NCBI RefSeq assembly: GCF_018336915.1
Contig: NZ_CP064923.1
Coordinates: forward strand, 2,550,001-2,582,000
Source of the DNA: Acaryochloris marina S15
GTDB taxonomy: Bacteria > Cyanobacteriota > Cyanobacteriia > Thermosynechococcales > Thermosynechococcaceae
Direction: 5' to 3'
Length of the DNA: 32,000 nt
Made by a program: the position numbers and the translations under genes. Numbering within the stretch: the stretch's first letter is position 1; each line of letters opens with the position of its first letter. The notes beneath the pieces were generated by a model that was given only the letters and a program-made list of their open reading frames with translations, did not search any database and was not told the DNA's origin. Shown one piece after another: positions 2,526 through 30,492 of the stretch.

Positions 2526-3369
2526 GGTAGTGTCGCAAAAATAGAGTGTTGACCGATAGACAGTGGTAAATTGAGAGGCTCTGTTCCTTTTCTCTCCCAT
2601 CAATGAAAACTACTGATCTGTTCAAATGGCGTCATTACCAATCTGAGATCATCCTGCTCAATGTTCGTTGGTATTGCCGTTATCCCCTCAGCTATAGAAA
2701 TTTAGAAGAGATGATGATAGAGAGGGGCTTAGAGGTGGATCACAGCACCATCAATCGGTGGGTTCTCAAATATTCTCCTGAGCTAGACAAGCGCTGTCGT
2801 CGGCATCTCAAGCCTACCAATGATTCTTGGAGAGTTGATGAAACTTACATCAAAATCCGTAAAAAGTGGCGATACCTATATCGAGCCGTAGACTCTGATG
2901 GCTACACCCTCGACTTTTTACTCACAGCAAAGCGGGATGCTAAGGCTGCGAAGCGCTTTCTGACTAAAGCACTGAATGCCGTTCATACCCATGAACCTCG
3001 GGTGATCAATGTGGACAAGAATCCAGCATATCCTCCTGCTGTTGAGCAGTTACAGGAAGAGGAACGTATCCCTGAAGGAGTAAAAGTACGGCAGGTAAAA
3101 TACCTCAATAATATAGTGGAGCAAGATCATCGTGGCATTAAAAGTCTCGTGAACCCTGGTATGGGATTTGGATCGTTTAACTCGGCTAGACGAACCTTAA
3201 AAGGGTATGAAGCGATGAACATGATCCGTAAAGGTCAGATCAAAAATGTGGGCAAAGATGATGTGGTAGGACAGATCTCTTTTATCAATCAAATCTTCGG
3301 ATTAGCTGCATAGTCTCGGATAGAAATCTGAGGAGTTTTGTAACTGGAAGCATTTTTTGCGACACAACC
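2526..3369 (+). mobile_element. IS6-family insertion sequence, copy 1 (844 bp, complete)
   Basis: The terminal inverted repeats are GGTAGTGTCGCAAAAA (2526-2541) and the reverse complement of 3354-3369 (GGTTGTGTCGCAAAAA), matching at 15/16. The same ends, length and ORF offsets (77 and 56 nt) are found in copy 2 at 29649-30492. Confidence 0.9.
2603..3313 (+). CDS. IS6-family DDE transposase
   Basis: 236 aa. 'FKWRHYQSEIILLNVRWYCRYPLSYRNLEEMMIERGLEVDHSTINRWV' and 'DETYIKIRKKWRYLYRAVD' parallel the IS26 Tnp26 motifs (FKGRHF..., DETYVKVNGRWAYLYRAVD). The protein is identical to that of ORF 29705..30415. Confidence 0.95.
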   Translation: MKTTDLFKWRHYQSEIILLNVRWYCRYPLSYRNLEEMMIERGLEVDHSTINRWVLKYSPELDKRCRRHLKPTNDSWRVDETYIKIRKKWRYLYRAVDSDGYTLDFLLTAKRDAKAAKRFLTKALNAVHTHEPRVINVDKNPAYPPAVEQLQEEERIPEGVKVRQVKYLNNIVEQDHRGIKSLVNPGMGFGSFNSARRTLKGYEAMNMIRKGQIKNVGKDDVVGQISFINQIFGLAA

Positions 3370-3686
3370 GGAACTAACACCAAATCGCATCTGGTCAATA
3401 TAGCTTTAGTGACTTCTGAAAGTGAGCCTGGCCCATCAACTACAACAACGTCATAGTCATCTGAAAAGGCAGGTAAACTTTCAAATAACTGTTCAGGATC
3501 TATAAGTACTTTATAATCGAGTCCAAGTTCGTTAAGCCATGCGGAACTACTCTGCTGACCATCTGCATCAACAAGCATTACTGAAAGACCTTTTTGAGCA
3601 AGCCAAAATGCTGCATGAGCAGCACTTGTAGATTTTCCAGATCCACCTTTTTGATTAGCAAAAGCAATGATTTTGGGAGTTTGCAT
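3370..3686 (-). pseudogene. parA: ParA/Soj-type partition ATPase, 3'-truncated by IS6 copy 1
   Basis: From ATG 3686 the sequence reads 'MQTPKIIAFANQKGGSGKSTSAAHAAFWLAQKGLSVMLVDADGQ...VVVVDGPGSLSEVTKAILTRCDLVLVP', which includes the deviant Walker A KGGSGKST. Homology stops at codon ~106, exactly at the IS6 end (3369/3370). The rest of track ORF 3285..3785 is read-through into the IS. Confidence 0.85.
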
Positions 3687-3732
3687 AGAGTAGAGGCTTC
3701 TGTATCTAAACCTAACCAGACAAATATTATAC

Positions 3733-3930
3733 TCAATCTGTTGATTTGCAAATGAGATCGTTATCTTTCGACTGGATAAATGCAATCGACCCTAGAACGG
3801 TGTAAGCAGTGAATATAAATAAGAACCAACTCAGGATTATATAAAGCGTTAAATACCAACCGAGTTTGACCATCGCACTGCTCAACGAATAGGGTAGTTC
3901 TTGCCCGTAAATTTTAGTGATTAACCTCAA
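3733..3930 (-). CDS. hypothetical small membrane peptide (65 aa); doubtful
   Basis: TTG-initiated ORF 46 nt downstream of the NACHT gene stop, with one hydrophobic stretch ('GWYLTLYIILSWFLFIFTAYTVLGSIAF'). No recognisable family and no clear RBS. Confidence 0.25.
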   Translation of the reverse strand: MRLITKIYGQELPYSLSSAMVKLGWYLTLYIILSWFLFIFTAYTVLGSIAFIQSKDNDLICKSTD

Positions 3931-3975
3931 CCCTATGACCTATGGTAATCCTATGGCATAGAGCTTCAATAAATG

Positions 3976-6174
3976 TTATGGCTTTAGACTCAATTCATAT
4001 GGAGTTTTCCCATCCATACTGGCAAAATGCTCAAGCAACATTCGATGGATAAAGATATAGCCATCGCCAATCTTCTGCAGAAAGAGACAGTTCACAGAAT
4101 CATCTAAAAAGCGGGCATAATCCCAAGGAATATATCTCATCCGATAGAGCATCACCCTAAGTGAAAAATGCCGTAGGCAAGTTGTACCACCCCCCAGCAA
4201 CCCACCTATCAGCCCACCTATCAATCCATACCTCATCCCGCTATATGGCCCAAAGATTAGCCCAAATAATAGCCCAGAACTCAGTCCACCCATCAGTCCA
4301 AACGTTATAGCATTACGAAAAGATTTCCAAAGTTCTTGGTTTGCTCTTAATCCCTGATTGAGAGTGACTTCTTGACCTCTAAATACAGTCGTCAGCTCAC
4401 CCAGCAGCCCCACTATTAACCCAAATATCAAGCCATAAATTAGTCCAGATATCGACCCTACCATTAGCCAAACCATCAACCCAGATATTGACCCTACTAT
4501 TAGCCCAAACGCTACAACTGTGCGGAGCGACTTCCTAAATCTTAGGTGCACCCTAGATTTATTAGGAAGGTCTATTCCTGGACCTCTAAAGCCACCCATC
4601 AATCCCACCATTAGCCCAATAATTAGCCCAGCTGCTAACCCAAAGATTGCCCCATATATAGCCCCAATCATGAGTCCAAAGATCGCCCCATACATCAGCC
4701 CAAGTATCAGCCCAATCATCACCCCAGCTGCTAGCCCAGTCTCTAGCCCAGTCGGTAAAGTATCGATTGCTTCTTTCCTAGACCATCTGACCGTCTCTGG
4801 CATTTTAATTCGTTCTAAGCATCCAACAATCAGCCCAACTATTAACCCAATAGTTAACCCAAGCAATGGCCCAGAAAACAACCCAACTAATAACCCAGAA
4901 ATTAGCCCAATCAATAACCCGCTTTCCAGGCGATATCTCATCCTTAGAGGCTCATTGTGAAAGCAGTTCGGCTGCAATCCCTCAACCCTAAAAATGGTTT
5001 GGGAGTTTTGAAGCATTTGCTGTGCTACCCAAATTAGCCAATGTGTTGCTTGCTCTTGGAGATAGGGTTGTGCGGTTTCTCGACGCTTGAAAATGCGTTT
5101 GATATAGGTGTCAAATAAGTGTTGACGGAAAATATCTGATGTCGCTGACTGGGGAAAATCATCCAAAGTACAACCTTGATAGGTCAAGCTCATAATGCTC
5201 AACAATAAAGGTGAAGAGGCAAGTGTTTGAATCTCAGAGTCTTCGCTTATTACTGCTCTTAAAGCCGCTAAAGGGGCTCCTACTTGTTCCAGATAATCGT
5301 CAATTTGCTGAGGTTGTAGAGGTTGAACGTAAATTGCGTTTTGCAAACTGAGCTTTTTTGAAAGGGATTCATAGTCGTAAACCCGGCTACATACAACCAT
5401 TTCAGTACGATTATGAGTTTGCATGAAATGATTGAGGGCGTCTACACATGCATTCTGATGTTTGGACTCAACTTCATCGAGACCATCTAACAGTAGGATG
5501 AGTTGCTCTTTTTCGATCCAGGCTTTCCCCAATACCTTAGCAACGGTATAGGTCTCATAGAGTTCTTGTACCAACCACTCCTCAATGGACTGTTGTTGTC
5601 TCGCCCAAGATGAGAGGTTCATCACCACTGGTAATGGCTGACTTAGATCCGCTTTGGAACGGGCAATCAGGCTTGCCGCTAATTTCAACAGAGTAACTGT
5701 TTTGCCAGACCCAGGCTCTCCTAAAATCAACATTGTGCGTCCAGCACCAATATCTTCAAATAGGTTGGTGGCTGTCTTACTTCGGGCGAGAACTTGCTGT
5801 ATTTCAGCAGGAAGTTCCTCTAAATCTCGTAATGGATTTAAAATACTATCACTCCAATCTTCCAACCCAAGTTCTTGCAAAACTTGGTTATGGAGTGAAT
5901 TTCCTAAAACACCATCAATCCAAAACTGCTGTACTTTACTGAGTAGAATCTTTCGCCATTCTTGTTCTTCTCTGATTAGGGACTTTGTTGTACTCAAAGG
6001 TGCATAATCAACTTGAACAGTGCCATAGATATTGATTAAACCGATCCCATCTTGAATTTGCTCTAATTTTAGATTTTGCCCAGTGATATCACCAATCTGA
6101 ACTGATTTTAGAACGCTATCGGAGATGCTTGATCTCTGTTTGAGCTTTTGATTTGGCGGTGGTTCCATACTCAC
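3976..6174 (-). CDS. NACHT-domain (STAND) NTPase with a C-terminal multi-pass glycine-zipper transmembrane region
   Basis: 732 aa. Walker A 'GEPGSGKT' is encoded at 5698-5721 and Walker B is 'LILLLDGLDEV'; downstream NACHT-like helices include 'SPLLLSIMSLTY'. Residues ~417-663 are four hydrophobic GxxxG blocks. The soluble tail 'IPWDYARFLDDSVNCLFLQKIGDGYIFIHRMLLEHFA' resembles tails I recall on other cyanobacterial NACHT proteins. The start is GTG 6174, overlapping the upstream stop by 1 nt, or ATG 6168. Confidence 0.9.
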   Translation of the reverse strand: MSMEPPPNQKLKQRSSISDSVLKSVQIGDITGQNLKLEQIQDGIGLINIYGTVQVDYAPLSTTKSLIREEQEWRKILLSKVQQFWIDGVLGNSLHNQVLQELGLEDWSDSILNPLRDLEELPAEIQQVLARSKTATNLFEDIGAGRTMLILGEPGSGKTVTLLKLAASLIARSKADLSQPLPVVMNLSSWARQQQSIEEWLVQELYETYTVAKVLGKAWIEKEQLILLLDGLDEVESKHQNACVDALNHFMQTHNRTEMVVCSRVYDYESLSKKLSLQNAIYVQPLQPQQIDDYLEQVGAPLAALRAVISEDSEIQTLASSPLLLSIMSLTYQGCTLDDFPQSATSDIFRQHLFDTYIKRIFKRRETAQPYLQEQATHWLIWVAQQMLQNSQTIFRVEGLQPNCFHNEPLRMRYRLESGLLIGLISGLLVGLFSGPLLGLTIGLIVGLIVGCLERIKMPETVRWSRKEAIDTLPTGLETGLAAGVMIGLILGLMYGAIFGLMIGAIYGAIFGLAAGLIIGLMVGLMGGFRGPGIDLPNKSRVHLRFRKSLRTVVAFGLIVGSISGLMVWLMVGSISGLIYGLIFGLIVGLLGELTTVFRGQEVTLNQGLRANQELWKSFRNAITFGLMGGLSSGLLFGLIFGPYSGMRYGLIGGLIGGLLGGGTTCLRHFSLRVMLYRMRYIPWDYARFLDDSVNCLFLQKIGDGYIFIHRMLLEHFASMDGKTPYELSLKP
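4186..4926 (-). repeat. Four tandem glycine-zipper TM modules inside the NACHT gene (coding repeat, about 12-nt periodicity)
   Basis: The protein has runs with Gly every 4th residue: 'GLLIGLISGLLVGLFSGPLLGLTIGLIVGLIVG', 'GLAAGVMIGLILGLMYGAIFGLMIGAIYGAIFGLAAGLIIGLMVGLMGG', 'FGLIVGSISGLMVWLMVGSISGLIYGLIFGLIVGLLG' and 'FGLMGGLSSGLLFGLIFGPYSGMRYGLIGGLIGGLLGGG'. On the + strand, attagccca/atcagccca/attaaccca units recur. Confidence 0.8.
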
Positions 6175-6758
6175 TATGATTTCTTCTGCAAGCGAACGCT
6201 CTCTTGTTCGGGTTTTAAGCCAGAATATGTGGATGTATCAGTGATGATATCTTTGAGTAATTCACAAATCTCGTTGGAATAATATTGTAAATACCACTGA
6301 ACTATCACATAAAAAGATCCTAAATATAAAGGAATTATTTCAAGTCCTCTCCATTCGAATATGGGTAAAATAAATGCTATCAGAAAAGCCGCGATTGAGA
6401 CTGGGACTAGGATATAGGTATATTGATGATTCAGCTGTATTAGCAACTGTAAGGCAATGTGATCTCCTTGGCTGATCAAACGCCCATGTGTGCGGAACAA
6501 AAACAGACTATTGAGTCTGGGGCCAATCAAAACTAACTGATTTTGAGTGAGATGTCCCCGATAATATCGAGTCGGTACCGTCCGTTGTCTGCGTTTGAGA
6601 ATAATGTCTTGAGCAAATATTATTTTTAATCGCTGCTGTGCTTGCATTATGGGCACAGGAATCGTCAACGTCATACATCGATATGGAATCAATTGACCCG
6701 CGACTGGTTTCAGATTTTTAGTTTTGGCTTTGTATTCCCTGGAAGTTTTTATGTTCAT
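6174..6758 (-). CDS. hypothetical protein, basic N-terminal half plus two C-terminal TM helices
   Basis: 194-aa ORF starting at ATG 6758. Its stop TAG (6176-6174) overlaps or abuts the NACHT start, implying translational coupling. The hydrophobic segments are 'YILVPVSIAAFLIAFILPIF' and 'IIPLYLGSFYVIVQWYLQYY'. No family recognised. Confidence 0.6.
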   Translation of the reverse strand: MNIKTSREYKAKTKNLKPVAGQLIPYRCMTLTIPVPIMQAQQRLKIIFAQDIILKRRQRTVPTRYYRGHLTQNQLVLIGPRLNSLFLFRTHGRLISQGDHIALQLLIQLNHQYTYILVPVSIAAFLIAFILPIFEWRGLEIIPLYLGSFYVIVQWYLQYYSNEICELLKDIITDTSTYSGLKPEQESVRLQKKS

Positions 6759-6932
6759 ACGATAAAGCAGCTTTTTCTTGTAAAGACCTACAGTTTGAGA
6801 AAGATGAATTTCTCAAGCTGATTAATACTCAAATGCATTTCAATCCTTTACCCTAGGTAGAGTTTGAGCCATTATTACTCCAGTAAAAACACAAAATTTA
6901 ATCCTTGATCCAAGCCTCTAACCCGACCTCCG

Positions 6933-7667
6933 TCATAATTTGCGACGGCTCCAGAAATCATCAACAATAATGACAACAACCGTTGGTACACAGCCAAAGA
7001 CCACTATCAAAATGATGCAAGTGAAAATAGTCAACATACCTTCACTTACATCCGTATCATAGAAAAACCGCTGACCTTCTAAATATTGAATCGATTGATC
7101 ATTCGCCCCGATCTTGAAAATCGCTTCATAGTAGGGGGCGTACTCGTCTGCAATTTGATAACCAACGGCACTAATAAACGCTCGTTTTTCTCCTGATGAT
7201 GTTTCGCCAATTAAGATAATTCCTGACATATTATGGTTGGTAAAGCCCTCATCAGGAGCGGCAATAATAGGGGATTGCATCATCGGAGTATATAAATCTG
7301 CAACTCCTTTAGAGTTTTTGTCAAAGGAGGACGGCAACCTGCCCGTAGACTGCAAGTAACGTGGAAGGCGTTTATATAATTCGTTGTGGTGAAACTCGTT
7401 CAGTATTCCAGACAGAGGTATATCAGGATCAACAACGAATGAACATTGTTCAGGGTCTCTACAGTCTGGTGTTCGAACTAGTATTAATCTTTCAACCTTG
7501 ACAATCGTCTTCGCTGCCTCGAGTAAGTCCGGACGCCTATACCAATAGCCCCACCGTTCATTGTTATACCAAAAGGAGGCAATAAAGGACAGGACAACTA
7601 CACCCATGAAGTAATACAAGGCAAGTCTTACGGGCTTGCTCAAAGAACTTAATGGCGCTTCTTTCAT
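6933..7667 (-). CDS. hypothetical bitopic membrane protein
   Basis: The track ORF 6933..7706 starts at TTG; the first ATG is at 7667 ('MKEAPLSS...'), giving 244 aa. It has an N-terminal TM ('LALYYFMGVVVLSFIASFWY') and a C-terminal TM ('MLTIFTCIILIVVFGCVPTVVVIIV') around a ~170-aa domain. It runs in the same direction as the NACHT gene and ends 174 nt upstream of the 194-aa gene. Confidence 0.55.
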   Translation of the reverse strand: MKEAPLSSLSKPVRLALYYFMGVVVLSFIASFWYNNERWGYWYRRPDLLEAAKTIVKVERLILVRTPDCRDPEQCSFVVDPDIPLSGILNEFHHNELYKRLPRYLQSTGRLPSSFDKNSKGVADLYTPMMQSPIIAAPDEGFTNHNMSGIILIGETSSGEKRAFISAVGYQIADEYAPYYEAIFKIGANDQSIQYLEGQRFFYDTDVSEGMLTIFTCIILIVVFGCVPTVVVIIVDDFWSRRKL

Positions 7668-8023: not shown

Positions 8024-9490
8024 GAAAGCGTAATTTTTGTACATTATTCAAGTTTTTAGTGTTACTCTATCTCTTGCAGAGGTTCGAGAGTAACGGTGAG
8101 AGATGGACTACGAATTTAGAGTGATTGTGGAGAAAGTTTCGGTTACCACTCAGGAAGTCGTTAAACGAGACACTCTAAAAATCTATGACATCAAGCAACC
8201 AGAATCTATTCTAGATCTAGGATTGCGTCACGAAGAACAAATCTCTCTGCTTTCCAAAGTCCAAAGTGCTCTGTTATCCGAACAATCTACCCTCATCGAT
8301 ACTGGAGTTACGCAGTGCATCAAATGTGGTGGGAAAATAGGCAAGCTTGGTTTTCAACCATCTACATTCCATGCCGTCTTCAGCGATCATAAACTCCGTA
8401 TCCAAAAACATCGGTGCAAGAATCCTGAGTGTCGATGGCAAAGTATGCCATCGGTGTTGAGCGTCTTTGGCACAGATACTCATCCTGACTTAGTAAAACT
8501 GCAATGTGAGAATGGTGCCTTGCATAGCTATCGAGAAGCTCAGGATAATATGGAGCGGCTGAATGCTCAGCGCCGGAGTGTGAATAACCATGTCCAAATC
8601 AAAAACGTGACCAATCAAGTCGGTGAGCGTTTATCTCAAGCGAACACTACCCCTCCAGATCAAGAAGAGTTACCCACCCCGGCAGCAGAACTCATTGCTC
8701 AAGTCGATGGGGGTCATATTCCTACCAAAGATAAAGACAAGCGCAGTTTTGAAGCCTTATCTGGCATCGTTTATCGTCCTAGTGCCATTGAAGTAGTTGA
8801 TAAACATCATCGCCAAATTACGGAAAAGACTTGTGTTGTTTCCGCCTTAGAGGATGAGTTGCAAACCATCAAGACCTATCTGCATCATGCGGCACTTAAA
8901 CAAGGGATGACAGAAGAGACACAGGTCACTGCCTTGGCCGATGGTGCTAGCAACTGCTGGTCAGTCATCTCAGTTCTTGAGCCTCATTGCAAAGCATTAG
9001 AGCTGATCTTGGACTGGTTTCATATCGGCAAGAAATTCCGAAATGTCAGCAATGCACTGGGTGAAACCTTTGCAGAATCCCTCGATAGTGCGAAGGGGAG
9101 TTTATGGCATGGAAAAGTAGATGATGCTCTGCAGAAGATTGCCATGCTTCGAGACAACATTTCAGATGAGAAGAAGCAAACAAAGCTCAAAGGCTTATAC
9201 GATTACTTAAAGAATAACAGTGAATATCTTGTCAATTATGACGAGCGAGATAAAGCGGGGCTAGCTTATACCAGTCAAGTTGCAGAATCTCATATTGACA
9301 CCCTCATTAATGCTCGCCATAAAAAGAAGCAGAAGATGCAATGGACTCGGGTAGGTGCCCATAATGTCTTGCAAATCAGGGCGAGTATGATCAGTAATGA
9401 ATGGAGTGATAATTGGCTAGATTTAGTTCTTCCTGAAGAAGAAAAAGCTGCTTGAGAATTAGGCTTTTAATGTAGGATATTTACGCTTAC
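8024..9490 (+). mobile_element. ISKra4-like insertion sequence, copy A (1467 bp)
   Basis: The boundaries come from where copies A and B stop being identical. The imperfect terminal IRs are GAAAGCGTAATTTTTGTACATT (8024-8045) and the reverse complement of 9469-9490 (GTAAGCGTAAATATCCTACATT), matching at 17/22. ORF offsets (79 and 35 nt) are identical in both copies. The family name is tentative. Confidence 0.8.
8103..9455 (+). CDS. DDE transposase with N-terminal zinc ribbon (ISKra4-like family)
   Basis: 450 aa. The Zn-ribbon is 'CIKCGGKIG...HRCKNPECRW'. DDE-like landmarks are 'AQVDGGHIPT', 'ALADGASNCW', 'ILDWFHIGKKF' and 'SQVAESHIDTLINARHKKKQKMQWTRVGAHNVLQIRA'. It differs from ORF 25221..26573 at one residue (P here, L there), encoded by C at 8983 here and the complement of A at 25693 there. 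Confidence 0.85.
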   Translation: MDYEFRVIVEKVSVTTQEVVKRDTLKIYDIKQPESILDLGLRHEEQISLLSKVQSALLSEQSTLIDTGVTQCIKCGGKIGKLGFQPSTFHAVFSDHKLRIQKHRCKNPECRWQSMPSVLSVFGTDTHPDLVKLQCENGALHSYREAQDNMERLNAQRRSVNNHVQIKNVTNQVGERLSQANTTPPDQEELPTPAAELIAQVDGGHIPTKDKDKRSFEALSGIVYRPSAIEVVDKHHRQITEKTCVVSALEDELQTIKTYLHHAALKQGMTEETQVTALADGASNCWSVISVLEPHCKALELILDWFHIGKKFRNVSNALGETFAESLDSAKGSLWHGKVDDALQKIAMLRDNISDEKKQTKLKGLYDYLKNNSEYLVNYDERDKAGLAYTSQVAESHIDTLINARHKKKQKMQWTRVGAHNVLQIRASMISNEWSDNWLDLVLPEEEKAA

Positions 9491-9497
9491 GACAGCA

Positions 9498-11272
9498 ATG
9501 GCCTATAAACGTCAAGGAGCAACCCTGTCCATGAGTAAATTCCGCGAAATTATCCGTTTACATGAACTCGGTCATAATAAATCTGAGATTGCCCGTAGCT
9601 GCTTCATCGCCCGTTCTACCGTCCGAGACTATCTGCATCGTGCCCAGCATCAATCCCTCAGTTATGACCAGTTAAGCTGCCTGAGTGATAGTGATGTCCA
9701 GCATCTGCTGGGAAAGGGTCAACGTCAGTCTTCCCGTAAGAAACCTGGAATTGACTTCGAGTATGTGCATCGAGAGATACAACGCAAAGGGGTCACTCTC
9801 TGCCTGTTATGGATGGAAGGTAAAGAGCGAGGAGATTGGAACTGTAGCTATAGTGGCTTTTGTCGTCGATACCGTAAGTGGAAAAAACAGCACTCGCTGT
9901 CCATGCGTCAGACCCACAAGGCTGCAGAAAAAATCTATGTAGATTACTGCGGGATGACCGTGCCTGTGGTCCATCCCCACACGGGTGAAGTCATAACAGC
10001 CCAAATCTTTGTCGCTTGTTTTGGGGCAAGTAACTACACCTATGCTGAGGCGACCGAAAGCCAAACATCAAAGAACTGGCTCGGATCTCATCAACGGTCC
10101 TTGGCCTTCTTTGGTGGAGTGCCGGTCGCGTTCGTCCCAGACAACCTCAAGTCAGGCGTCACAGATCCATGTCGTTATGAGCCCGGTATCAATCAGAGCT
10201 ATCAAGATTTTGCCGAACACTACAACGTGATCATCTTGCCCGCTCGCCCCAAATGCCCTCGGGACAAACCCAAAGTGGAGAATGCGGTGCAGCAAGTGGA
10301 ACGCCATATCTTGGCACCTTTGAGAGATCAGACCTTTACCAGTTTCAAACCTGACTGCCTGACACATCTCTGAAAGCCTTTTCTTCGTAAGGGTTTGCAC
10401 TGTAAGAATAGCAACGCTGCCCCTAAGGCAAGAGAGTTGGTAATACGTTTAGGTTGCGTTTGACGTGTGAACAATGCCAAAAGCTAGCCTTATACACCCT
10501 GCTATTCAGCATCCAAAAGCTACGTATCTAAAGGCTTTGAGGTACTTATGTCAGGCAGTCAGGTTTCAAACACCTCAATGAGGCTATCGCAGTGGGGCTG
10601 GAGAAACTCAATCATCGGACCATGAAATCCTATGGTCTCTCGCGTCGAGAATTATTTGAGCAAGTGGACCAACCAGAACTCAGGCCCTTGCCCAGTCAAG
10701 TGTTTGAGTTTGGAGAATTTAAGAACGCAAAAGTGAGTTTTGATTATCACATTGAGGTGAACCGCCACTATTACAGTGTCCCTTATGAATATGTGGGGAA
10801 ATCAGTATCCGTCAAGATTACGGAATCTTTGGTGCAGATTTTCCATGACCATCAGCGCATTGCGATACATGAACGTTCTAGCTTGCCGTTTCAGCATTCC
10901 ACTGAAGAGGGGCATATGCCACCAGCGCATTTGGCTTACAAAACCCAATCGAGAGAGACCTTCCTGGCTTGGGCCCAGAATGTTGGACCGGCGACAAAGC
11001 AGCAAGTGATAGATATCTTTGAGAAGAAAGCCCATGATGAACAGGCGTTTCGTGCTTTGAAAGGGGTGCAACATCTAAGAACAACCCATGGTGCTCAGCG
11101 ATTGGAGGCGGCCTGTAAGCGAGCGAATGCCATGGGGATGGTGGGTCAACGCTATCTCAAGTCCATGCTCCAACACAAACTGGAATCTGACCCCTTACCG
11201 GATGAGGAGCATAAGGTGGTGCTTCTTCACCATGCCAATGTCCGTGGGTCCAAATACTATCAAGCAACTTAG
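9498..11272 (+). pseudogene. istA: IS21-family transposase IstA, interrupted by a MITE
   Basis: Track ORFs 9498..10373 and 10592..11272 are two halves of one gene. The N-terminal HTH is 'SKFREIIRLHELGHNKSEIARSCFIARSTVRDYL' and the IS21-type motif is 'PARPKCPRDKPKVENAV'. Removing 221 bp (the element plus one target-repeat copy) restores the frame and reads '...QTFTSFK|HLNEAIAVGLEKLNHR...', for a total of about 517 aa. Confidence 0.9.
10351..10562. mobile_element. MITE-like non-autonomous element (212 bp) inserted in istA
   Basis: The perfect terminal inverted repeat is CCTGACTGCCTGACA (10350-10364) and TGTCAGGCAGTCAGG (10549-10563). The flanking direct repeat is GTTTCAAAC (10342-10350 and 10563-10571). 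The TIR/TSD boundary is ambiguous by 1 nt, giving either 14-bp TIR with 9-bp TSD or 15-bp TIR with 7-bp TSD. The element has no ORF. Confidence 0.85.
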
Positions 11273-11284
11273 GGGGAGACAACG

Positions 11285-12148
11285 ATGCAAGCAATGATTG
11301 ACCAGCTGCAACACATGAAGCTTACGGAACTCTTGGAGGCTTGGCGAGAACAGCAGGCCTTGCCCACCTATCATGATCTATCGTTCGATGAACGACTCGC
11401 TTTGATGGTAGAGCGTGAATACATCCGACGACAAAACCAACGGATGCAGCGCCGACTCCGGCAAGCTCGACTGCCGGTGCACGCCACCCTTGATGCAGTG
11501 GATTTTGATGTGCCCAGAGGGCTCAAAAAGATCCAGTTTCTCGAATTTGCTCAAGGCCATTGGCTCCAAGAAAATCTGTCATTGATTTTGCTTGGTCCCA
11601 CGGGCGTGGGAAAGTCTTTCTTGTCAGCTGTACTGGCCCATCATTTGTGCAAACAAGGCCATAGCGTGCGCTATATCAAAACCGCTGATCTGGTTCTGGA
11701 GTTGAAGTTAGCCAAAGGAGATGGGTCTTATCCCAAACTCCGAAAACAATTAGCGGCTTACGATCTACTCGTGCTCGATGAATGGCTTAGAGATCCACTG
11801 TCTGTCTTTGAGGCTAGAGAAATACTCGATATCTTAGATGAGCGTTTCCGTAAAGCTTCCTGTTTATTTGCCACGCAAATGCCCCTCGAACAATGGCACT
11901 CACAAATTCAAGATCCCACCCTGGCTGATGCCATTCTTGACCGGATTATTCATGATGCGATGAAGGTCCCGCTTCGAGGAGAATCCATGAGGAAATTGAC
12001 CAGTAAACTGACCCTGAAGCCAGAAGGGGACATCAGTAATGACCGTTCAGATGAGGATAAAACAACGAGTGAAACAACCGCTACATCTAAGCCCAAAACA
12101 CAAAAGGAGAAAAGGAATGAAAAAAAGGAAGGACAGATGGATGAATAG
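11285..12148 (+). CDS. istB: IS21-family helper ATPase IstB
   Basis: 287 aa. Walker A is 'GPTGVGKS' and Walker B is 'LLVLDEW'; 'DRIIHDA' is present. It begins 13 nt after the istA stop. The unusually long acidic/lysine-rich C-terminal tail is not typical of IstB. Confidence 0.9.
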   Translation: MQAMIDQLQHMKLTELLEAWREQQALPTYHDLSFDERLALMVEREYIRRQNQRMQRRLRQARLPVHATLDAVDFDVPRGLKKIQFLEFAQGHWLQENLSLILLGPTGVGKSFLSAVLAHHLCKQGHSVRYIKTADLVLELKLAKGDGSYPKLRKQLAAYDLLVLDEWLRDPLSVFEAREILDILDERFRKASCLFATQMPLEQWHSQIQDPTLADAILDRIIHDAMKVPLRGESMRKLTSKLTLKPEGDISNDRSDEDKTTSETTATSKPKTQKEKRNEKKEGQMDE

Positions 12149-15034: not shown

Positions 15035-16696
15035 CTAAATATAGAAGCTGATATTAAGTGGTTCGCCACCTTTTGATAAGACGTTGCGGTTGACCAAATC
15101 TGAAAGCGTTTTAGTTTCATGAATAATCTCCCAGCCAACAGGAGAGAAAGTGTGCTTATTGTATATATTTTCGGCCAGCAGTGGACTGGTGAGTACGTGG
15201 GTTAGAGCATCAATTGCAATGACACGGGTCGCCAGTGGCCCCAATAGTGAATTACTTGGCGTATCTTCTGCGAATAGCCCCACGTATAGCTCTACTTTAT
15301 CGACATCTCCGTACAGCTGTTGTAATAATTCCTGTGTTCGGGGGTTCCCTGTAATTTGATCAAATTGTGTCACTCTGGGAAACTTATATGCATATCGATA
15401 GTCGTTGTAGCTCGCCAGTTGCACTTTACGGCTAAGCTCAATGGTTGGGACTTCAGCTGGTCCAATTAAAAATTCAGGCGTATTAAACAGGCCTATTTTG
15501 CTAGCGGGTTGGGCCGATGTTTCCTGTAAGAGCGTTCCGATGTCACTATCTAGAATCAGCTGATTATTCCAGAGTGTTTCTTTAGTATTTTTAGCTGTGC
15601 CATTGTACTGTATGGTCTCTGGCAAGGAGCTGTGCCAACGATACACAAAGTTAAACTCAATCGACATCCAGTTTTGACGGTACCATTTCTCATTGGGAAA
15701 TGATTGTGGATCAAGAATCACGTTGAAATGGTAAGGCGTAATGTGGTTTACATAATCTTCGATGACGATTTTCATAATCGTCACGATTAAGATATTTCTC
15801 GCTGTTTGAAACAGTCGCTCATCATCCCAATCCGAGCTAGACTTGGCCCTAGCTAGCATGTCACAGATTCTGTTGTGCTCCCGTAAACAAATAACGTTGA
15901 GCATCACGTAGCCAATTTGCACGTTGGCCCTTTCTACACCCATGGCAAACATCTTTTCCTTTTTCTCAGGAAACTGCCTGCGCTCGTCATTTAGTGGTTC
16001 ATACAGACCCTTAAATTCTTCTTTAAAGATGTTATTTCTCGCATCTTCATAGACAAAGAGAGGATATTCTTCGTCGTTTATCCACTGGCTTTTGAGCTTA
16101 CCGCCTTCAAACTTCCTCAATAAATGAGTTGTTTTTCGATTCAGTCCATAAACGGGTGCTAGGTCAATTAGGTGGTTAGAAGTATTTTTTAACCGATTCC
16201 TCCGATCTGTTCGTAAAAAGCCATCGGTAAACCACTGTGCCCAGTAGGGAAATAGTAGCGTTGACTTCTCTGAGTAAATCGTTTCGCCATCTTGTTTGCG
16301 AAAAAGATCAGATAGGTCTTCTGGGGTGGGTAAGGCTGGATCTTGATTGAGCTCGGGTTTAGGTGGGAGGTGGCGACTGCTATAAGTGCGATCGCTTAAC
16401 GAATCCCAAGACGTATAAGTGTCTATCTTTTTAGGTCTTTCTGGGATGTCTGGAATCAGTTCTTTTGTGCATGGATCATATTTAAATGTATCTGGAACAT
16501 ATTCTTCCAGAGTCATTAGACTAAACGGATAGGGCCGGGTCGCAACTTTATACACGGTGAGATTGGTTAAAAAGCGATTGGCCCAACGTGTAAGCACTGG
16601 ACAGCGCTGAATCAATCGCCATATTAATGAAAAATTGGTTAGCAAGAACAGTTCTAACCGATTCATAAATCCATCATTGGAGGTATTTCTCAACAC
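15035..16696 (-). CDS. cyclooxygenase-like haem peroxidase/fatty-acid dioxygenase family protein
   Basis: 553 aa starting at GTG 16696, with an alternative ATG at 16666. It has long colinear similarity to the animal COX catalytic domain as I remember it: 'CLREHNRICDML' against WLREHNRVCDLL, 'DERLFQTARNILIVTIMKIVIEDYVNHI' against [28 protein letters not shown], 'EFNFVYRWHSSLP' against EFNHLYHWHPLMP, and 'LYGDVDKVELYVGLFAED' against LYGDIDALEFYPGLLLE. Confidence 0.85.
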   Translation of the reverse strand: MLRNTSNDGFMNRLELFLLTNFSLIWRLIQRCPVLTRWANRFLTNLTVYKVATRPYPFSLMTLEEYVPDTFKYDPCTKELIPDIPERPKKIDTYTSWDSLSDRTYSSRHLPPKPELNQDPALPTPEDLSDLFRKQDGETIYSEKSTLLFPYWAQWFTDGFLRTDRRNRLKNTSNHLIDLAPVYGLNRKTTHLLRKFEGGKLKSQWINDEEYPLFVYEDARNNIFKEEFKGLYEPLNDERRQFPEKKEKMFAMGVERANVQIGYVMLNVICLREHNRICDMLARAKSSSDWDDERLFQTARNILIVTIMKIVIEDYVNHITPYHFNVILDPQSFPNEKWYRQNWMSIEFNFVYRWHSSLPETIQYNGTAKNTKETLWNNQLILDSDIGTLLQETSAQPASKIGLFNTPEFLIGPAEVPTIELSRKVQLASYNDYRYAYKFPRVTQFDQITGNPRTQELLQQLYGDVDKVELYVGLFAEDTPSNSLLGPLATRVIAIDALTHVLTSPLLAENIYNKHTFSPVGWEIIHETKTLSDLVNRNVLSKGGEPLNISFYI

Positions 16697-17181: not shown

Positions 17182-18258
17182 TTAAGCTATGTCACTTCCC
17201 GTTGAATCAGCTTCTTCTATCTCATAAGTTGTAACCGAATCGGCTGATGCTTCTTCCCCACTAAGATCAAGCTTTTGACGCACCTGTTGTTCTACATCTT
17301 GAGCAAACTCTGGATTATCTAGGAAATATTGAATGGTATTCTCCCGCCCCTGGCCTATATTGCTACCGTCATAGCTATACCAAGCTCCTTTACGGACAAT
17401 GATATCCTTCTCTTCCGCCATATCCACAAGGCAACCCATTGTTGAAATCCCTTGACCAAATAGGATGTCAAACTCTGCAATCCGAAAGGGAGGAGCAACC
17501 TTGTTCTTTGCTACCTTGACCTTTGCTCGGATGCCATACATGTCAGTCCCTTTTTTCAAAGTTTGAATCCGACGAATATCCAAGCGAACAGATGCATAGA
17601 ACTTGAGGGCGTTACCTCCCGTGGTCACCTCAGGGTTACCATAGGTGACCCCAATCTTCTGACGAAGTTGGTTGAGGAAGATGACGGTGCTGCCTGACTT
17701 GGCAATGTTGCTTGTAATCTTACGCAGGGCTTGACTCATCAACCGAGCCTGTAAGCCCATATGGGAATCACCCATATCTCCCTCGATTTCAGCTCTAGGA
17801 GTGAGAGCAGCAACAGAGTCAATCACCACCAGATCAACCGCACTAGAACGAACTAGCTGATCCACAATTTCTAAAGCCATCTCCCCAGAATCAGGCTGAC
17901 TCACAAGCAGCTCTGATACATCGACACCCAAGGCTGCTGCATAAACTGGATCAAGAGCATGTTCTGCATCGACAAAAGCCGCGACACCTCCAGTCTTTTG
18001 GATCTGAGAGATCGCATGGAGGGCTACCGTTGTTTTTCCCGAACTTTCAGGTCCATATATTTCAATGACACGTCCTCTAGGAAGCCCACCCCCTAAAGCG
18101 AGGTCCAGGGTTAATGCCCCACTCGAGATGGTCTCGACCTGCATACGAGTGGCATCTCCCAGTCGCATGATCGCCCCTTTGCCAAACGTCTTTTCAACGT
18201 TTTTCATCACCAAGTCGAGGGCTTTTTGCTTCTCAGTCATGTCATTTTTAGCGCTCAT
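17182..18258 (-). CDS. recA: recombinase RecA
   Basis: 358 aa, full length. It has '[23 protein letters not shown]', Walker A 'GPESSGKTT', Walker B '[10 protein letters not shown]', the L2 region '[34 protein letters not shown]' and an acidic C-terminal tail. Confidence 0.98.
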
Positions 18259-29648: not shown

Positions 29649-30492
29649 GGTTGTGTCGCAAAAAATGCTTCCAGTTACAAAACTCCTCAGATTTCTATCC
29701 GAGACTATGCAGCTAATCCGAAGATTTGATTGATAAAAGAGATCTGTCCTACCACATCATCTTTGCCCACATTTTTGATCTGACCTTTACGGATCATGTT
29801 CATCGCTTCATACCCTTTTAAGGTTCGTCTAGCCGAGTTAAACGATCCAAATCCCATACCAGGGTTCACGAGACTTTTAATGCCACGATGATCTTGCTCC
29901 ACTATATTATTGAGGTATTTTACCTGCCGTACTTTTACTCCTTCAGGGATACGTTCCTCTTCCTGTAACTGCTCAACAGCAGGAGGATATGCTGGATTCT
30001 TGTCCACATTGATCACCCGAGGTTCATGGGTATGAACGGCATTCAGTGCTTTAGTCAGAAAGCGCTTCGCAGCCTTAGCATCCCGCTTTGCTGTGAGTAA
30101 AAAGTCGAGGGTGTAGCCATCAGAGTCTACGGCTCGATATAGGTATCGCCACTTTTTACGGATTTTGATGTAAGTTTCATCAACTCTCCAAGAATCATTG
30201 GTAGGCTTGAGATGCCGACGACAGCGCTTGTCTAGCTCAGGAGAATATTTGAGAACCCACCGATTGATGGTGCTGTGATCCACCTCTAAGCCCCTCTCTA
30301 TCATCATCTCTTCTAAATTTCTATAGCTGAGGGGATAACGGCAATACCAACGAACATTGAGCAGGATGATCTCAGATTGGTAATGACGCCATTTGAACAG
30401 ATCAGTAGTTTTCATTGATGGGAGAGAAAAGGAACAGAGCCTCTCAATTTACCACTGTCTATCGGTCAACACTCTATTTTTGCGACACTACC
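29649..30492 (-). mobile_element. IS6-family insertion sequence, copy 2 (844 bp, complete, inverted relative to copy 1)
   Basis: It has the same IRs as copy 1 (GGTTGTGTCGCAAAAA at 29649-29664, and the complement of GGTAGTGTCGCAAAAA ending at 30492) and an identical transposase. Confidence 0.9.
29705..30415 (-). CDS. IS6-family DDE transposase
   Basis: 236 aa, identical to ORF 2603..3313. Confidence 0.95.
   Translation of the reverse strand: MKTTDLFKWRHYQSEIILLNVRWYCRYPLSYRNLEEMMIERGLEVDHSTINRWVLKYSPELDKRCRRHLKPTNDSWRVDETYIKIRKKWRYLYRAVDSDGYTLDFLLTAKRDAKAAKRFLTKALNAVHTHEPRVINVDKNPAYPPAVEQLQEEERIPEGVKVRQVKYLNNIVEQDHRGIKSLVNPGMGFGSFNSARRTLKGYEAMNMIRKGQIKNVGKDDVVGQISFINQIFGLAA

What the first reader, a model, noticed from the sequence alone, without database searches (positions are those of the whole stretch)
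3733..7667. Membrane-only gene cassette centred on a NACHT NTPase with a glycine-zipper transmembrane arm: candidate undescribed STAND-type conflict system
The minus strand carries co-directional genes:
- a 244-aa bitopic protein (7667->6933);
- a 194-aa protein with two C-terminal TM helices (6758->6174);
- a 732-aa NACHT protein whose start (GTG 6174 or ATG 6168) overlaps or lies 5 nt from the upstream stop TAG (6176-6174);
- possibly a 65-aa TM peptide.

The 732-aa protein has a clear NACHT core (GEPGSGKT, LILLLDGLDE) after ~140 aa of unassigned N-terminal sequence. Where STAND proteins usually carry WD40/TPR/LRR-type sensor repeats, it has ~250 aa of GxxxG transmembrane segments and a short soluble tail (IPWDYARFLD...GDGYIFIHRMLLEHFA).

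Established knowledge: bacterial NACHT/STAND NTPases are oligomerising switches used in antiphage defence, built from effector, NTPase and sensor arms.

Inference: NTPase-driven oligomerisation could assemble the glycine-zipper helices into a membrane lesion, in the manner of abortive infection. The upstream membrane proteins would then act as sensor, partner or immunity components. The setting fits an accessory conflict island: IS elements, a parA remnant and a DUF4157 toxin-like gene within 4 kb. I know of no characterised system with this architecture.
Basis: partly seen in the sequence, partly recalled or inferred. Interest (0 to 1): 0.8.

Follow-up and report, generated by a model that had tools for sequence, protein, structure and literature searches.

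The report
Membrane-embedded NACHT switch, orphaned from partner
The region holds a real but ordinary member of a large, already catalogued and untested family of bacterial NACHT (NLR-like) ATPases with membrane helices inserted into their winged-helix domain; the neighbouring membrane-protein genes are an unrelated local pair, not parts of a conserved new defence cassette.

Summary
All four ORFs are real, and the 730/732-aa protein is a genuine NACHT NTPase with a glycine-rich hydrophobic region. Three points of the interpretation change.

1. The hydrophobic region is not a C-terminal arm. It is four predicted helical hairpins inserted inside the NACHT winged-helix domain. The "soluble tail" (GYIFIHRMLLEHFA) is the most conserved segment and carries the winged-helix histidine motif. 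Kibby et al. 2022 already list this architecture as "68TM-wHTH".

2. The family is very large (more than 2,700 hits; 369 or more genomic loci), mostly in cyanobacteria and Chloroflexota. None of the 80 loci fetched carries the 194-aa or 244-aa genes. That pair also occurs without a NACHT gene.

3. In relatives the N-terminus is the swappable effector position (kinase, TIR, CHAT, cyclase, or a short amyloid-like motif). The window protein carries such a motif. Paralogues pair it with a ~144-aa gene 13 nt upstream. That partner is missing here.

The 65-aa ORF is the stump of a 141-aa gene cut by a rearrangement. The best reading is a membrane-embedded STAND switch with an N-terminal templating adaptor, orphaned in an IS-bracketed mosaic. 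The function has not been tested.

The parts
3976..6168 (-). NACHT NTPase gene with a TM-inserted winged helix (730 aa from ATG 6168; alternative GTG start at 6174)
   Evidence: ORF. Identical to A. marina QUY44780.1. Pfam NACHT 45.8 bits. AF2 model pLDDT 71, with Foldseek top PDB hits NLRP9, NLRC4, NLRP3, NOD2 and NAIP5 at E 3e-5 to 8e-4. dN/dS 0.33 against the orthologue in L082.
6010..6135 (-). N-terminal amyloid-like adaptor motif (aa 12-53: RSSISDSVLKSVQIGDITGQNLKLEQIQDGIGLINIYGTVQV)
   Evidence: Conserved across the 42-sequence alignment. Motif HMM E 9e-13. Local alignment to the 144-aa partner of the paralogue in L083 gives z 5.8, with 0 of 500 shuffles reaching it. AF2 pLDDT is below 50 for residues 1-37. 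dN/dS 0.29 for aa 1-58, which contain the motif.
5284..5739 (-). NACHT nucleotide-binding domain (Walker A GEPGSGKT, Walker B LILLLDGLDE, sensor-1 VVCSR)
   Evidence: Pfam PF05729 at aa 146-297. Invariant columns G150, P152, G153, G155, K156, T157, D228, G229, L230, D231, E232 and R262. Mean pairwise identity 0.71.
4141..4959 (-). Hypervariable hydrophobic insert: four predicted helical hairpins (8 TM helices) separated by K/R-rich loops
   Evidence: Hydropathy blocks. AF2 helices 406-432/434-449, 464-497/499-524, 546-570/574-597 and 611-639/641-676. Mean identity 0.34 and length 185-317 aa among homologues. Loops carry 4-7 K+R; hairpin turns are uncharged. 12- and 24-nt tandem repeats lie in the DNA.
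4018..4140 (-). Conserved C-terminal remainder of the winged-helix domain (IPWDYARFLD...GDGYIFIHRMLLEHFA) with an invariant His
   Evidence: Most conserved segment, mean identity 0.74; H708, R709, E713, F715 and A716 are invariant. AF2 predicts helix 684-693, a beta hairpin 697-700/703-706 and helix 709-717. The spacing F-x-H-x4-E-x-F-A matches the NLR winged-helix His motif (my own knowledge). A '68TM-wHTH' domain is named in Kibby Table S1.
6174..6758 (-). p194: lineage-restricted protein with two C-terminal hydrophobic helices; its stop overlaps the NACHT GTG
   Evidence: ORF and junction. Only 4 homologues among 5.8 billion proteins. One homologue (P0124) carries an extra CD225 domain and sits after a p244 homologue with no NACHT downstream. 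No motif shared with the NACHT N-terminus, z below 1. dN/dS 0.45.
6933..7667 (-). p244: bitopic protein (TM, about 170-aa alpha/beta domain, TM) of an unannotated family
   Evidence: 157 cluster representatives at E<=1e-3. AF2 pLDDT 92, with no PDB fold match (best E 0.24). Relatives occur without a NACHT gene: three tandem copies beside PadR and an RND pump (L094), and beside a glycosyltransferase on plasmid pREC3.
3733..3930 (-). 65-aa ORF: stump of a 141-aa multi-TM gene that follows the NACHT gene in the orthologous locus
   Evidence: aa 20-52 are 85% identical to residues 1-33 of the 141-aa product in L082. DNA synteny with L082 stops at window 3776.
3370..3768 (-). Plasmid-type parA 5' fragment abutting the cassette
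   Evidence: AAA_31/ParA Pfam hits on the 166-aa ORF 3285-3785. 87% DNA identity to parA of A. marina plasmids.
2526..3369 (.). IS6-family element (transposase 2603-3313) bounding the mosaic on one side
   Evidence: DDE_Tnp_IS240, E 8e-45. A 100% identical inverted copy lies at 29649-30492 and a third partial copy at 31493-32000.
8024..9490 (.). UPF0236 (ISLre2-like) element bounding the cassette on the other side
   Evidence: 450-aa ORF with a weak UPF0236 hit. A 99.9% identical inverted copy lies at 25186-26652.

Best explanation
**What it is.** The 730-aa gene encodes a member of a very large family of bacterial NACHT (STAND) NTPases, found mainly in cyanobacteria and Chloroflexota. In this family several transmembrane helical hairpins are inserted into the winged-helix domain (WHD) of the NACHT module. 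Kibby et al. call this '68TM-wHTH'.

**Shown.**
- The NACHT core is intact.
- The region holds four hydrophobic hairpins. Their connecting loops are K/R-rich and their turns uncharged. Every soluble part is therefore predicted to be cytoplasmic, and there is no periplasmic domain.
- The final ~56 residues are the most conserved part. They are predicted to form a helix, a beta hairpin and a helix carrying an invariant His.
- Across the family the N-terminus is the swappable position. It holds Ser/Thr kinase, kinase plus cyclase, cyclase, CHAT, TIR, DUF4062 or AAA_35 domains, or else a short G/Q/N/I-rich motif.
- That short motif is shared with the product of a small gene lying immediately upstream. 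The small protein is either Bell-type, with the motif at its C-terminus, or a ~144-aa protein with the motif at its N-terminus and a short hydrophobic C-terminal tail.
- The window protein has the second kind of motif but no partner gene in the 32-kb window.
- Its neighbours p244 and p194 form a separate, lineage-restricted gene pair.
- The downstream 141-aa gene is truncated by a rearrangement.

**Inferred mechanism.**
1. The WHD histidine normally locks STAND proteins in the ADP-bound off state.
2. Because the WHD is threaded through the membrane, a change in the bilayer or in hairpin packing (for example phage-induced membrane damage or depolarisation) would release the lock.
3. The NTPase would then oligomerise and bring the N-terminal motifs together.
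4. The clustered motifs would template the same motif in a small membrane-targeting executioner, as in HET-S/NWD2 and Bell/BASS, or would activate the fused enzyme in relatives.
5. In this locus the executioner would have to be supplied in trans. Otherwise the protein is an orphan sensor.
For: - NACHT identity: Pfam, invariant Walker A, Walker B and sensor-1 residues, and Foldseek hits to NLRP9, NLRC4, NLRP3, NOD2 and NAIP5.
- Insert in the WHD: AF2 secondary structure. Segment identities are 0.74 for the tail, 0.71 for the NBD and 0.34 for the insert, whose length varies from 185 to 317 aa. [quoted passage not shown]
- Topology: loops hold 4-7 K+R and turns hold no charged residue.
- Family size and spread: more than 2,700 hits and at least 369 genomic loci.
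- N-terminal effector swapping: and 29 long versus 14 short N-termini.
- Bell-type pairs: 8 loci, z 5-13, 0 of 500 shuffles.
- 144-aa partner: its gene ends 13 nt upstream of the NACHT start in five loci (L002, L004, L083, L088, L089) and 110 nt upstream of the annotated start in L086, where the motif-bearing reading frame begins further upstream; in L090 the upstream gene, called at 128 aa and likely with a miscalled start, also ends 13 nt upstream. Cognate pairs tested score z 8-14, and the HMM also matches partners and NACHT N-termini that were not in its seed. 67 partner homologues were found, 14 of them on contigs whose length equals that of a NACHT-hit contig.
- The window motif matches the partner motif (z 5.8) and is under purifying selection (dN/dS 0.29 for aa 1-58).
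- No other motif-bearing ORF lies in the window.
- p194 and p244 are independent of the NACHT family.
- Mosaic structure of the region.
Against: - No experiment exists for any member, so defence, membrane sensing and amyloid formation are all inferences.
- The WHD assignment rests on predicted secondary structure, a remembered motif pattern and a supplementary-table domain name. A PDB profile search with the insert removed found only P-loop matches.
- Placement in Kibby's clade 5 was not tested.
- Cognate and non-cognate partner/NACHT motifs are equally similar (0.52 against 0.50), so there is no pair-specific covariation.
- The partner's hydrophobic tail is only about 13 residues, short for a TM helix.
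- p194 and the NACHT gene are adjacent in the window and in L082, and probably also on the 6,439-bp contig shared by P0003 and P0123, which I inferred from equal contig length and did not inspect. The two genes have similar dS (0.33 and 0.30), so a local functional link is not excluded.
- The hydrophobic insert could itself perturb membranes on oligomerisation.
Confidence: 0.6

Rival explanations
1. p244, p194, the NACHT-TM protein and the small downstream membrane protein form one dedicated conflict cassette. NTPase-driven oligomerisation assembles the glycine-zipper helices into a membrane lesion, and the neighbours act as sensor, partner or immunity components.
For: - The gene order p244-p194-NACHT-p141 is kept in the closest orthologous locus, L082, and probably on P0003's contig.
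- The p194 stop overlaps, or lies 5 nt from, the NACHT start.
- All the genes are under purifying selection.
- A p194 homologue carries a CD225/IFITM-type domain.
Against: - None of 80 family loci carries these genes, and the paralogues use a different upstream gene.
- The p244-p194 pair exists without a NACHT gene, and p244 relatives stand alone.
- p194 has only 4 homologues.
- No motif is shared with the NACHT N-terminus.
- The conservation is seen only across a short evolutionary distance (dS about 0.3).
- The fourth gene is already destroyed in the window.
- The N-terminus, not the TM insert, is the effector-type variable position.
Confidence: 0.1
2. The TM insert is itself the effector across the whole family. 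Oligomerisation of the NACHT ring clusters 6-8 glycine-zipper helices per protomer into a pore, and the N-terminal modules are accessory or regulatory.
For: - GxxxG-rich helices are typical of pore-forming or tightly packing TM segments: 40 GxxxG matches, and G makes up 15.5% of the insert.
- Some members have very short N-termini.
- The window copy persists under selection without a cis partner.
Against: - N-terminal fusions to TIR, CHAT, kinase and cyclase domains, and to Bell/BASS adaptors, occupy the canonical STAND effector position.
- An executioner that is permanently membrane-embedded would need another safeguard.
- The insert sequence is hypervariable rather than conserved, as a defined pore would be.
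Confidence: 0.15
3. The family is not immunity-related. It would be a membrane-associated signalling ATPase for envelope stress, cell-cell recognition or developmental death in multicellular prokaryotes, and the window copy a chromosomal paralogue of that housekeeping-like function.
For: - The phyletic bias is towards filamentous or multicellular lineages, including cyanobacteria, Anaerolineae, Caldilineae and Methanocrinis.
- Kinase and cyclase fusions suggest signalling.
- No PADLOC or NCBIfam defence model is matched above cutoff.
Against: - Several paralogues occur per genome, and locations include plasmids, integrases and IS-rich regions.
- Neighbours include KAP NTPase, CHAT-TPR and other STAND genes.
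- TIR, CHAT and Bell/BASS modules are typical of death and immunity systems.
Confidence: 0.1
4. The window copy is a functionless relic. The gene would have been carried into the chromosome by IS6-mediated plasmid integration, stripped of its partner, and now be drifting.
For: - The cassette is bracketed by IS copies and abuts a plasmid-type parA fragment. The downstream gene is truncated.
- The paralogues are plasmid-borne and have partners.
- The window motif scores lower against the motif HMM than most family members, 47.6 bits (L082 45.0) against 50-63.
Against: - The 730-codon ORF is intact.
- dN/dS is 0.33 overall, 0.16 in the NBD and 0.29 across aa 1-58, which contain the motif, against an orthologue at dS 0.3.
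- The partner-less arrangement is shared by at least two diverged strains.
Confidence: 0.1

Closest known systems
Bacterial NACHT proteins with TM regions inserted in the NACHT module ('68TM-wHTH', clade 5 in Table S1 of Kibby et al. 2022, bioRxiv 10.1101/2022.07.19.500537)
   Same: A NACHT NBD followed by a winged-helix domain interrupted by 6-8 TM helices, with variable N-terminal effector domains (ACYC, REase and HTH there; kinase, TIR, CHAT and cyclase here). The paper proposes that the TM region senses intramembrane or periplasmic signals.
   Different: The listed '68TM-wHTH' examples are actinobacterial, and I did not test phylogenetic membership. No clade-5 entry in the part of the table I read carries a tested bNACHT number. 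The window protein has no periplasmic loops, and it has an amyloid-like N-terminal motif rather than an enzyme.
Bell/BASS-NLR amyloid signalling pairs (Dyrka et al. 2020, bioRxiv 10.1101/2020.01.06.895854; Bab/Agp, bioRxiv 10.1101/2024.11.07.622273) and fungal NWD2/HET-S
   Same: A short G/Q/N-rich motif at the NLR N-terminus is repeated in the product of a small collinear gene a few nucleotides upstream. Eight loci of this NACHT family have canonical Bell-type partners.
   Different: The motif type found in the window protein pairs, in paralogues, with a ~144-aa protein that carries the motif at its N-terminus and a short hydrophobic tail at its C-terminus. That is the reverse of the Bell layout. 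The window has no partner at all. Amyloid formation is untested.
KAP family P-loop NTPases (Aravind et al. 2004, Genome Biol 5:R30; cited)
   Same: A P-loop NTPase related to STAND/AAA+ with TM helices inserted inside the catalytic module rather than appended to it.
   Different: In KAP the helices are inserted in the P-loop domain itself; here they lie in the winged helix after HD1. The Pfam KAP_NTPase match is only E 0.057, whereas NACHT is matched above its cutoff.
Experimentally validated antiphage STANDs (bNACHT01 and others, Avs1-7, DS8, EruA)
   Same: A STAND NTPase core and a tripartite logic. There are weak NTPase-only matches to PADLOC PDC-S60 and to NCBIfam DS8 and EruA.
   Different: Scores are far below the family cutoffs (28.8 bits against 790, and 27.2 against 1000). 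The protein has no soluble repeat or FGS sensor and no phage-protein-binding domain.

Membership tests
NACHT clade of STAND NTPases | Walker A GxxGxGK[ST] and Walker B hhhhDG(h)DE, with the Pfam PF05729 match above its gathering score | tested here: met
   GEPGSGKT and LILLLDGLDE are present and invariant in 42 homologues. PF05729 scores 45.8 bits against a cutoff of 26.7.
NACHT clade of STAND NTPases | A sensor-1 arginine after strand beta4 and a winged-helix histidine (F-x-H-x4-E-x-F-A type motif) | tested here: met
   VVCSR has an invariant R262. YIFIHRMLLEHFA has an invariant H708 within a predicted helix-hairpin-helix. The motif definition comes from my own knowledge of NLR sequences.
NACHT clade of STAND NTPases | An NBD-HD1-WHD fold similar to solved NLR structures | tested here: met
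   The Foldseek top PDB hits are NLRP9, NLRC4, NLRP3, NOD2 and NAIP5, at E 3e-5 to 8e-4 over 270-385 aligned columns. Per-residue alignment of the WHD was not available.
NACHT with 6-8TM-inserted wHTH (Kibby et al. clade 5) | Multiple TM helices inserted within the winged-helix domain, with conserved WH elements on both sides | tested here: met
   Eight predicted helices form four hairpins between the WH helix at 371-387 and the helix-hairpin-helix at 684-717. Hydropathy and the positive-inside pattern agree.
NACHT with 6-8TM-inserted wHTH (Kibby et al. clade 5) | Phylogenetic placement of the NBD within that clade | not tested
Only the table entries were read.
NLR amyloid-signalling pair (BASS/Bell-type) | A short motif at the NLR N-terminus shared with the product of an adjacent gene | tested here: not met
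   The window NACHT has the motif, but no other ORF in the 32 kb carries it, and p194 and p244 share nothing with it (z below 1). The feature is met in paralogous and related loci.
NLR amyloid-signalling pair (BASS/Bell-type) | The motif forms cross-beta fibrils and templates its partner | not testable with these tools
   Only indirect signs are available: G/Q/N/I/V-rich composition and AF2 pLDDT below 50.
Known antiphage defence systems (PADLOC-DB, NCBIfam antiphage equivalogs) | A full-length match to a defence-system protein model | tested here: not met
   The best matches are PADLOC PDC-S60 at E 5e-9 (NTPase segment only), NCBIfam DS8 at 28.8 bits against a cutoff of 790, and EruA at 27.2 against 1000.
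CD225/dispanin (IFITM-like) for p194 | A Pfam PF04505 match | tested here: not met
   p194 has no Pfam hit. Only its homologue P0124 carries CD225, as an extra C-terminal domain (E 9e-17).

The most novel reading that the evidence does not exclude
The family would be a membrane-integrity-sensing NLR. TM hairpins threaded through the winged-helix lock would convert bilayer perturbation into NACHT oligomerisation. One large subfamily, to which the window protein belongs, would then signal by prion-like templating to a so far undescribed ~144-aa executioner. That protein has the reverse layout of Bell proteins: the motif is N-terminal and the hydrophobic tail C-terminal. In the Acaryochloris chromosomal lineage the cis partner has been lost, so the sensor would fire through plasmid-borne partners in trans or through the translationally coupled p194.
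Probability: 0.25. Interest if true: 0.7.

Novelty: new member of a known kind. Interest (0 to 1): 0.38.

Why it matters
The specific claim of a new membrane-only STAND cassette does not hold. What remains is worth a modest follow-up. A very abundant family of cyanobacterial and Chloroflexota NLR-like proteins has membrane helices threaded through the domain that locks STAND proteins off, and no member has been studied experimentally. If the helices act as the sensor, this would be an NLR that reads the state of the membrane rather than a soluble ligand. The recurrent 144-aa partner would add a new effector layout to bacterial amyloid signalling. The better experimental entry points are the intact plasmid-borne pairs of A. 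marina MBIC11017 (ABW32835/ABW32834 and ABW33029/ABW33030), not this orphaned chromosomal copy.

Tried and rejected
- **PDB profile search.** I searched with the TM insert excised (A2) to align the tail with NLR winged helices. Only P-loop matches appeared, at E>=0.05, so this was uninformative.
- **hhalign against neighbouring STAND proteins.** I compared A2 with STAND proteins from L055 and L006. They are not NACHTs and aligned only at Walker A.
- **Pfam on the insert-less chimera.** No WH-specific family was detected.
- **PADLOC and NCBIfam on all four products.** No system-level match was found.
- **Cognate versus non-cognate motif identity.** There was no difference, 0.52 against 0.50. 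Pair-specific covariation therefore cannot be used as evidence.
- **Fold search of the p244 model.** The model is confident (pLDDT 92) but has no PDB match.
- **DUF4157.** None was found in the ORFs scanned.
- **Literature search for NACHT plus glycine zipper.** No papers were returned.
- **The Cell version of Kibby et al.** It was not held, so I used the bioRxiv version and its supplement.
- **DGR-type diversification of the insert.** I considered and dropped this. The only reverse-transcriptase fragment (30466-30894) is about 25 kb away, and the variability is explained by 12- and 24-nt repeat slippage.

Full report
**Observation**

The four co-directional minus-strand ORFs exist as described.
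- The long one is identical to the annotated 730-aa 'NACHT domain-containing protein' QUY44780.1/WP_212665865.1 of Acaryochloris marina, on a 5.88-Mb contig.
- The junction with the upstream gene reads ...AAG AAA TCA TAG TGA GTA TGG.... The p194 stop therefore overlaps GTG 6174 and lies 5 nt before ATG 6168.
- Pfam NACHT matches aa 146-297 at 45.8 bits against a cutoff of 26.7.
- Hydropathy shows four G/L/I-rich blocks between about aa 405 and 676, with 40 GxxxG matches.
- p194, p244 and the 65-aa ORF match nothing in Pfam, NCBIfam or PADLOC.
- I found no DUF4157 gene in any ORF scanned.

**What the NACHT protein is**

It belongs to a very large family.
- More than 2,700 proteins match at E<=1e-3 among the 8,000 candidates scored. 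The top 120 are 40-50% identical (apart from near-identical and closer Acaryochloris sequences), and many of them align over about 98% of the length.
- One scan of species-representative genomes returned at least 369 relatives. They are mostly cyanobacteria, with some Anaerolineae, Caldilineae, Verrucomicrobia, Rhodothermaceae, Syntrophobacteraceae and the archaeon Methanocrinis.

A 42-sequence alignment (A1) and segment statistics show two strongly conserved regions: the NBD (mean pairwise identity 0.71) and the last ~56 residues (0.74). They flank a hydrophobic region that is poorly conserved (0.34) and varies in length from 185 to 317 aa. The hydrophobic region is punctuated by three conserved polar loops: IxTVETLKWSW, GGFRGPxI and PNQGIWKSAxNA.

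The AF2 model has mean pLDDT 71. It predicts:
- four helical hairpins, at 406-449, 464-524, 546-597 and 611-676;
- then helix 684-693, a beta hairpin at 697-706 and helix 709-717.

The last of these elements carries YIFIHRMLLEHFA with an invariant His708. This is the layout and motif spacing of the NLR winged-helix histidine. The motif pattern is from my own knowledge.

The inter-hairpin loops carry 4-7 Lys/Arg and the hairpin turns carry no charged residue. All soluble parts are therefore predicted to be cytoplasmic, and there is no periplasmic domain.

Foldseek places the model closest to NLRP9, NLRC4, NLRP3, NOD2 and NAIP5, at E 3e-5 to 8e-4.

The hydrophobic region is thus an insertion within the NACHT winged-helix domain, not a C-terminal sensor arm followed by a tail. 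This architecture is already catalogued.
- Their Table S1 names a '68TM-wHTH' domain in clade-5 proteins.
- I saw no tested bNACHT number on the clade-5 entries I read.
- I could not test phylogenetic membership.

**Are the neighbours part of it?**

tblastn of p194, p244 and p65 against the 80 fetched family loci found nothing at E<1.
- p194 has four homologues among 5.8 billion proteins.
- p244 belongs to an unannotated family of 157 cluster representatives. Its model is confident (pLDDT 92: TM, alpha/beta domain, TM) and has no PDB fold match.

Only the closest orthologous locus keeps the arrangement. In L082 the NACHT protein is 82% identical, p244 is 69% and p194 is 73%. There a 141-aa multi-TM gene follows the NACHT gene.

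The window's 65-aa ORF is the first 33 residues of that 141-aa gene. DNA synteny stops at 3776, where a plasmid-type parA fragment begins; that fragment is itself cut by an IS6 element.

Conversely, the pair occurs without the NACHT gene.
- L092 holds a p244 homologue (74%) followed by a p194 homologue (56%, with an added CD225 domain) and then an unrelated gene, with no NACHT.
- L094 has three tandem p244 paralogues beside PadR and an RND pump.
- Plasmid pREC3 has a p244 relative beside a glycosyltransferase.

The p244-p194 pair and the NACHT gene are therefore separable units, juxtaposed in one Acaryochloris lineage.

All three genes are under purifying selection against L082: dN/dS is 0.33 for NACHT, 0.45 for p194 and 0.26 for p244. 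dS is 0.71 for p244 against 0.30-0.33 for p194 and NACHT, which hints at recombination between them.

**What the family usually travels with**

Clustering the flanks of the 80 loci and context look-ups gave two recurrent upstream genes.

1. In eight loci a 121-172-aa gene lies upstream, encoding a Bell-like protein. [quoted passage not shown] Local alignment gives z 5-13, with 0 of 500 shuffles reaching the score. This is the published Bell/BASS-NLR arrangement.

2. A ~144-aa gene lies just upstream in L002, L004, L088, L089 and L090, and beside the two A. marina MBIC11017 plasmid paralogues (L083, L086).
   - In five loci (L002, L004, L083, L088, L089) it ends 13 nt before the NACHT start.
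   - In L086 it ends 110 nt before the annotated start; the motif-bearing reading frame begins further upstream.
   - In L090 the upstream gene is called at 128 aa, probably from a miscalled start, and also ends 13 nt upstream.
   - In L089 and L090 it precedes two tandem NACHT-TM genes.
   - Its N-terminus (SI.ISGGQ.S.VQIGGIAG.D..V.Q.QQIG) matches the NACHT N-terminus (NISDSVLE.VQIGGIAGRDLNLTQIQG) with z 8-14.
   - It continues as a helical segment and ends in a short hydrophobic tail (PWLGVA.GFL).
   - 67 such proteins were found. Fourteen sit on contigs whose lengths equal those of NACHT hits.
   - It has no Pfam or NCBIfam match.

Other family members carry N-terminal fusions instead: Pkinase, Pkinase plus cyclase, cyclase, CHAT, TIR_2, DUF4062 or AAA_35. 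Among 43 ORFs with both family signatures, 29 have long N-termini and 14 short.

The N-terminus is thus the variable, effector or adaptor position, and the TM-inserted NACHT is the constant part.

**The window copy**

- Its N-terminus (aa 12-53) carries the second motif type: HMM E 9e-13, and z 5.8 against the L083 partner.
- The first 58 residues, which contain the motif, are still constrained (dN/dS 0.29).
- No other ORF in the 32 kb carries the motif.
- p194 and p244 share nothing with it (z below 1).
- The cassette (3776 to about 8023) is bracketed by an IS6 element plus a parA fragment on one side and an ISLre2-like element on the other.
- Its paralogues are plasmid-borne, next to relaxase and coupling-protein genes.

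A plausible history, which is inference, is IS-mediated capture of plasmid DNA with loss of the partner.

**Mechanism (inferred)**

STAND proteins are held off by the winged-helix His contacting ADP. Activation rotates the WHD and allows oligomerisation; this is established knowledge for NLRs.

Here the WHD is threaded through the membrane by three or four hairpins whose sequence is free to vary. This fits a role in anchoring or in sensing the bilayer state better than a role as a defined pore.

Oligomerisation would cluster the N-terminal motifs. These would template the same motif in a small membrane-targeting protein, by analogy with NWD2/HET-S, Bell/BASS and Bab/Agp, or would activate the fused enzyme in relatives.

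In this locus the executioner would have to act in trans. I give about 0.85 to the identity and architecture and about 0.4 to this mechanism.

**Rivals**

- The insert as the family-wide effector (0.15).
- A non-immune membrane signalling role (0.10).
- A decaying relic (0.10).

Evidence for and against each is given in the dedicated fields.

**Verdict**

- It is a new member of a known, computationally catalogued and experimentally untouched kind.
- Interest is moderate to low for this locus. It is higher for the family and its 144-aa partner.

Noticed in passing
window 2526-3369, 29649-30492, 31493-32000; 8024-9490, 25186-26652: Two IS families form nested inverted pairs around a ~16-kb segment that contains recA. 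The IS6-family copies are 100% identical, with a third partial copy at the window end. The UPF0236/ISLre2-like copies are 99.9% identical. This layout would permit large inversions.
   Followed up: partly
window 20645-24448 (minus strand): A 1267-aa ORF has no Pfam match at E<=1e-3. It lies in the only stretch of the window with raised GC content (0.52-0.53, against about 0.44 elsewhere).
   Followed up: no
window 15035-16696 (minus strand): A 553-aa protein matches animal haem peroxidase (PF03098, E 6e-50). It sits next to a DUF2797 gene and an alpha/beta hydrolase gene, upstream of recA (17182-18258) and an RNB plus dsRBD ribonuclease (18590-20524).
   Followed up: no
window 9498-12148: The ORFs at 9498-10373 and 10592-11272 look like an IS21-type istA split in two, followed by an intact istB-like ORF with an ATPase motif (11285-12148). 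The IS21 assignment is from reading the translations, not from a family search.
   Followed up: no
window 30466-30894 (minus strand): A 142-aa reverse-transcriptase fragment (RVT_1, E 4e-24) lies between IS6 copies. It is probably a remnant of a group II intron or retron; I did not examine its type.
   Followed up: no
L083 7553-7987, L086 7457-7891, L088 3550-3987, L089 1514-1948, L002 6838-7281, L004 428-862: A ~144-aa protein family has no Pfam or NCBIfam match. It has an N-terminal G/Q-rich motif matching the adjacent NACHT N-terminus and a short hydrophobic C-terminal tail. In all of these loci except L086 its gene ends 13 nt before the NACHT start. This looks like an amyloid-signalling partner with the reverse layout of Bell proteins, and I found no description of it in the papers read.
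   Followed up: partly
L092 1199-2023 (protein P0124): A homologue of p194 carries an extra C-terminal CD225/IFITM-like domain (PF04505, E 9e-17). It sits directly after a p244 homologue. This suggests that the p244-p194 pair is a membrane module of its own.
   Followed up: partly
L089 1962-6001 and L090 4001-8352: Two NACHT-TM genes lie in tandem behind a single small partner gene. In L089 the two NACHT genes overlap by 4 nt.
   Followed up: no
window 4201-4920: 12- and 24-nt imperfect tandem repeats underlie the GLxxGLxx hydrophobic blocks. Repeat slippage may explain the length variation of the insert among homologues (185-317 aa) and the extra block in the window protein.
   Followed up: partly
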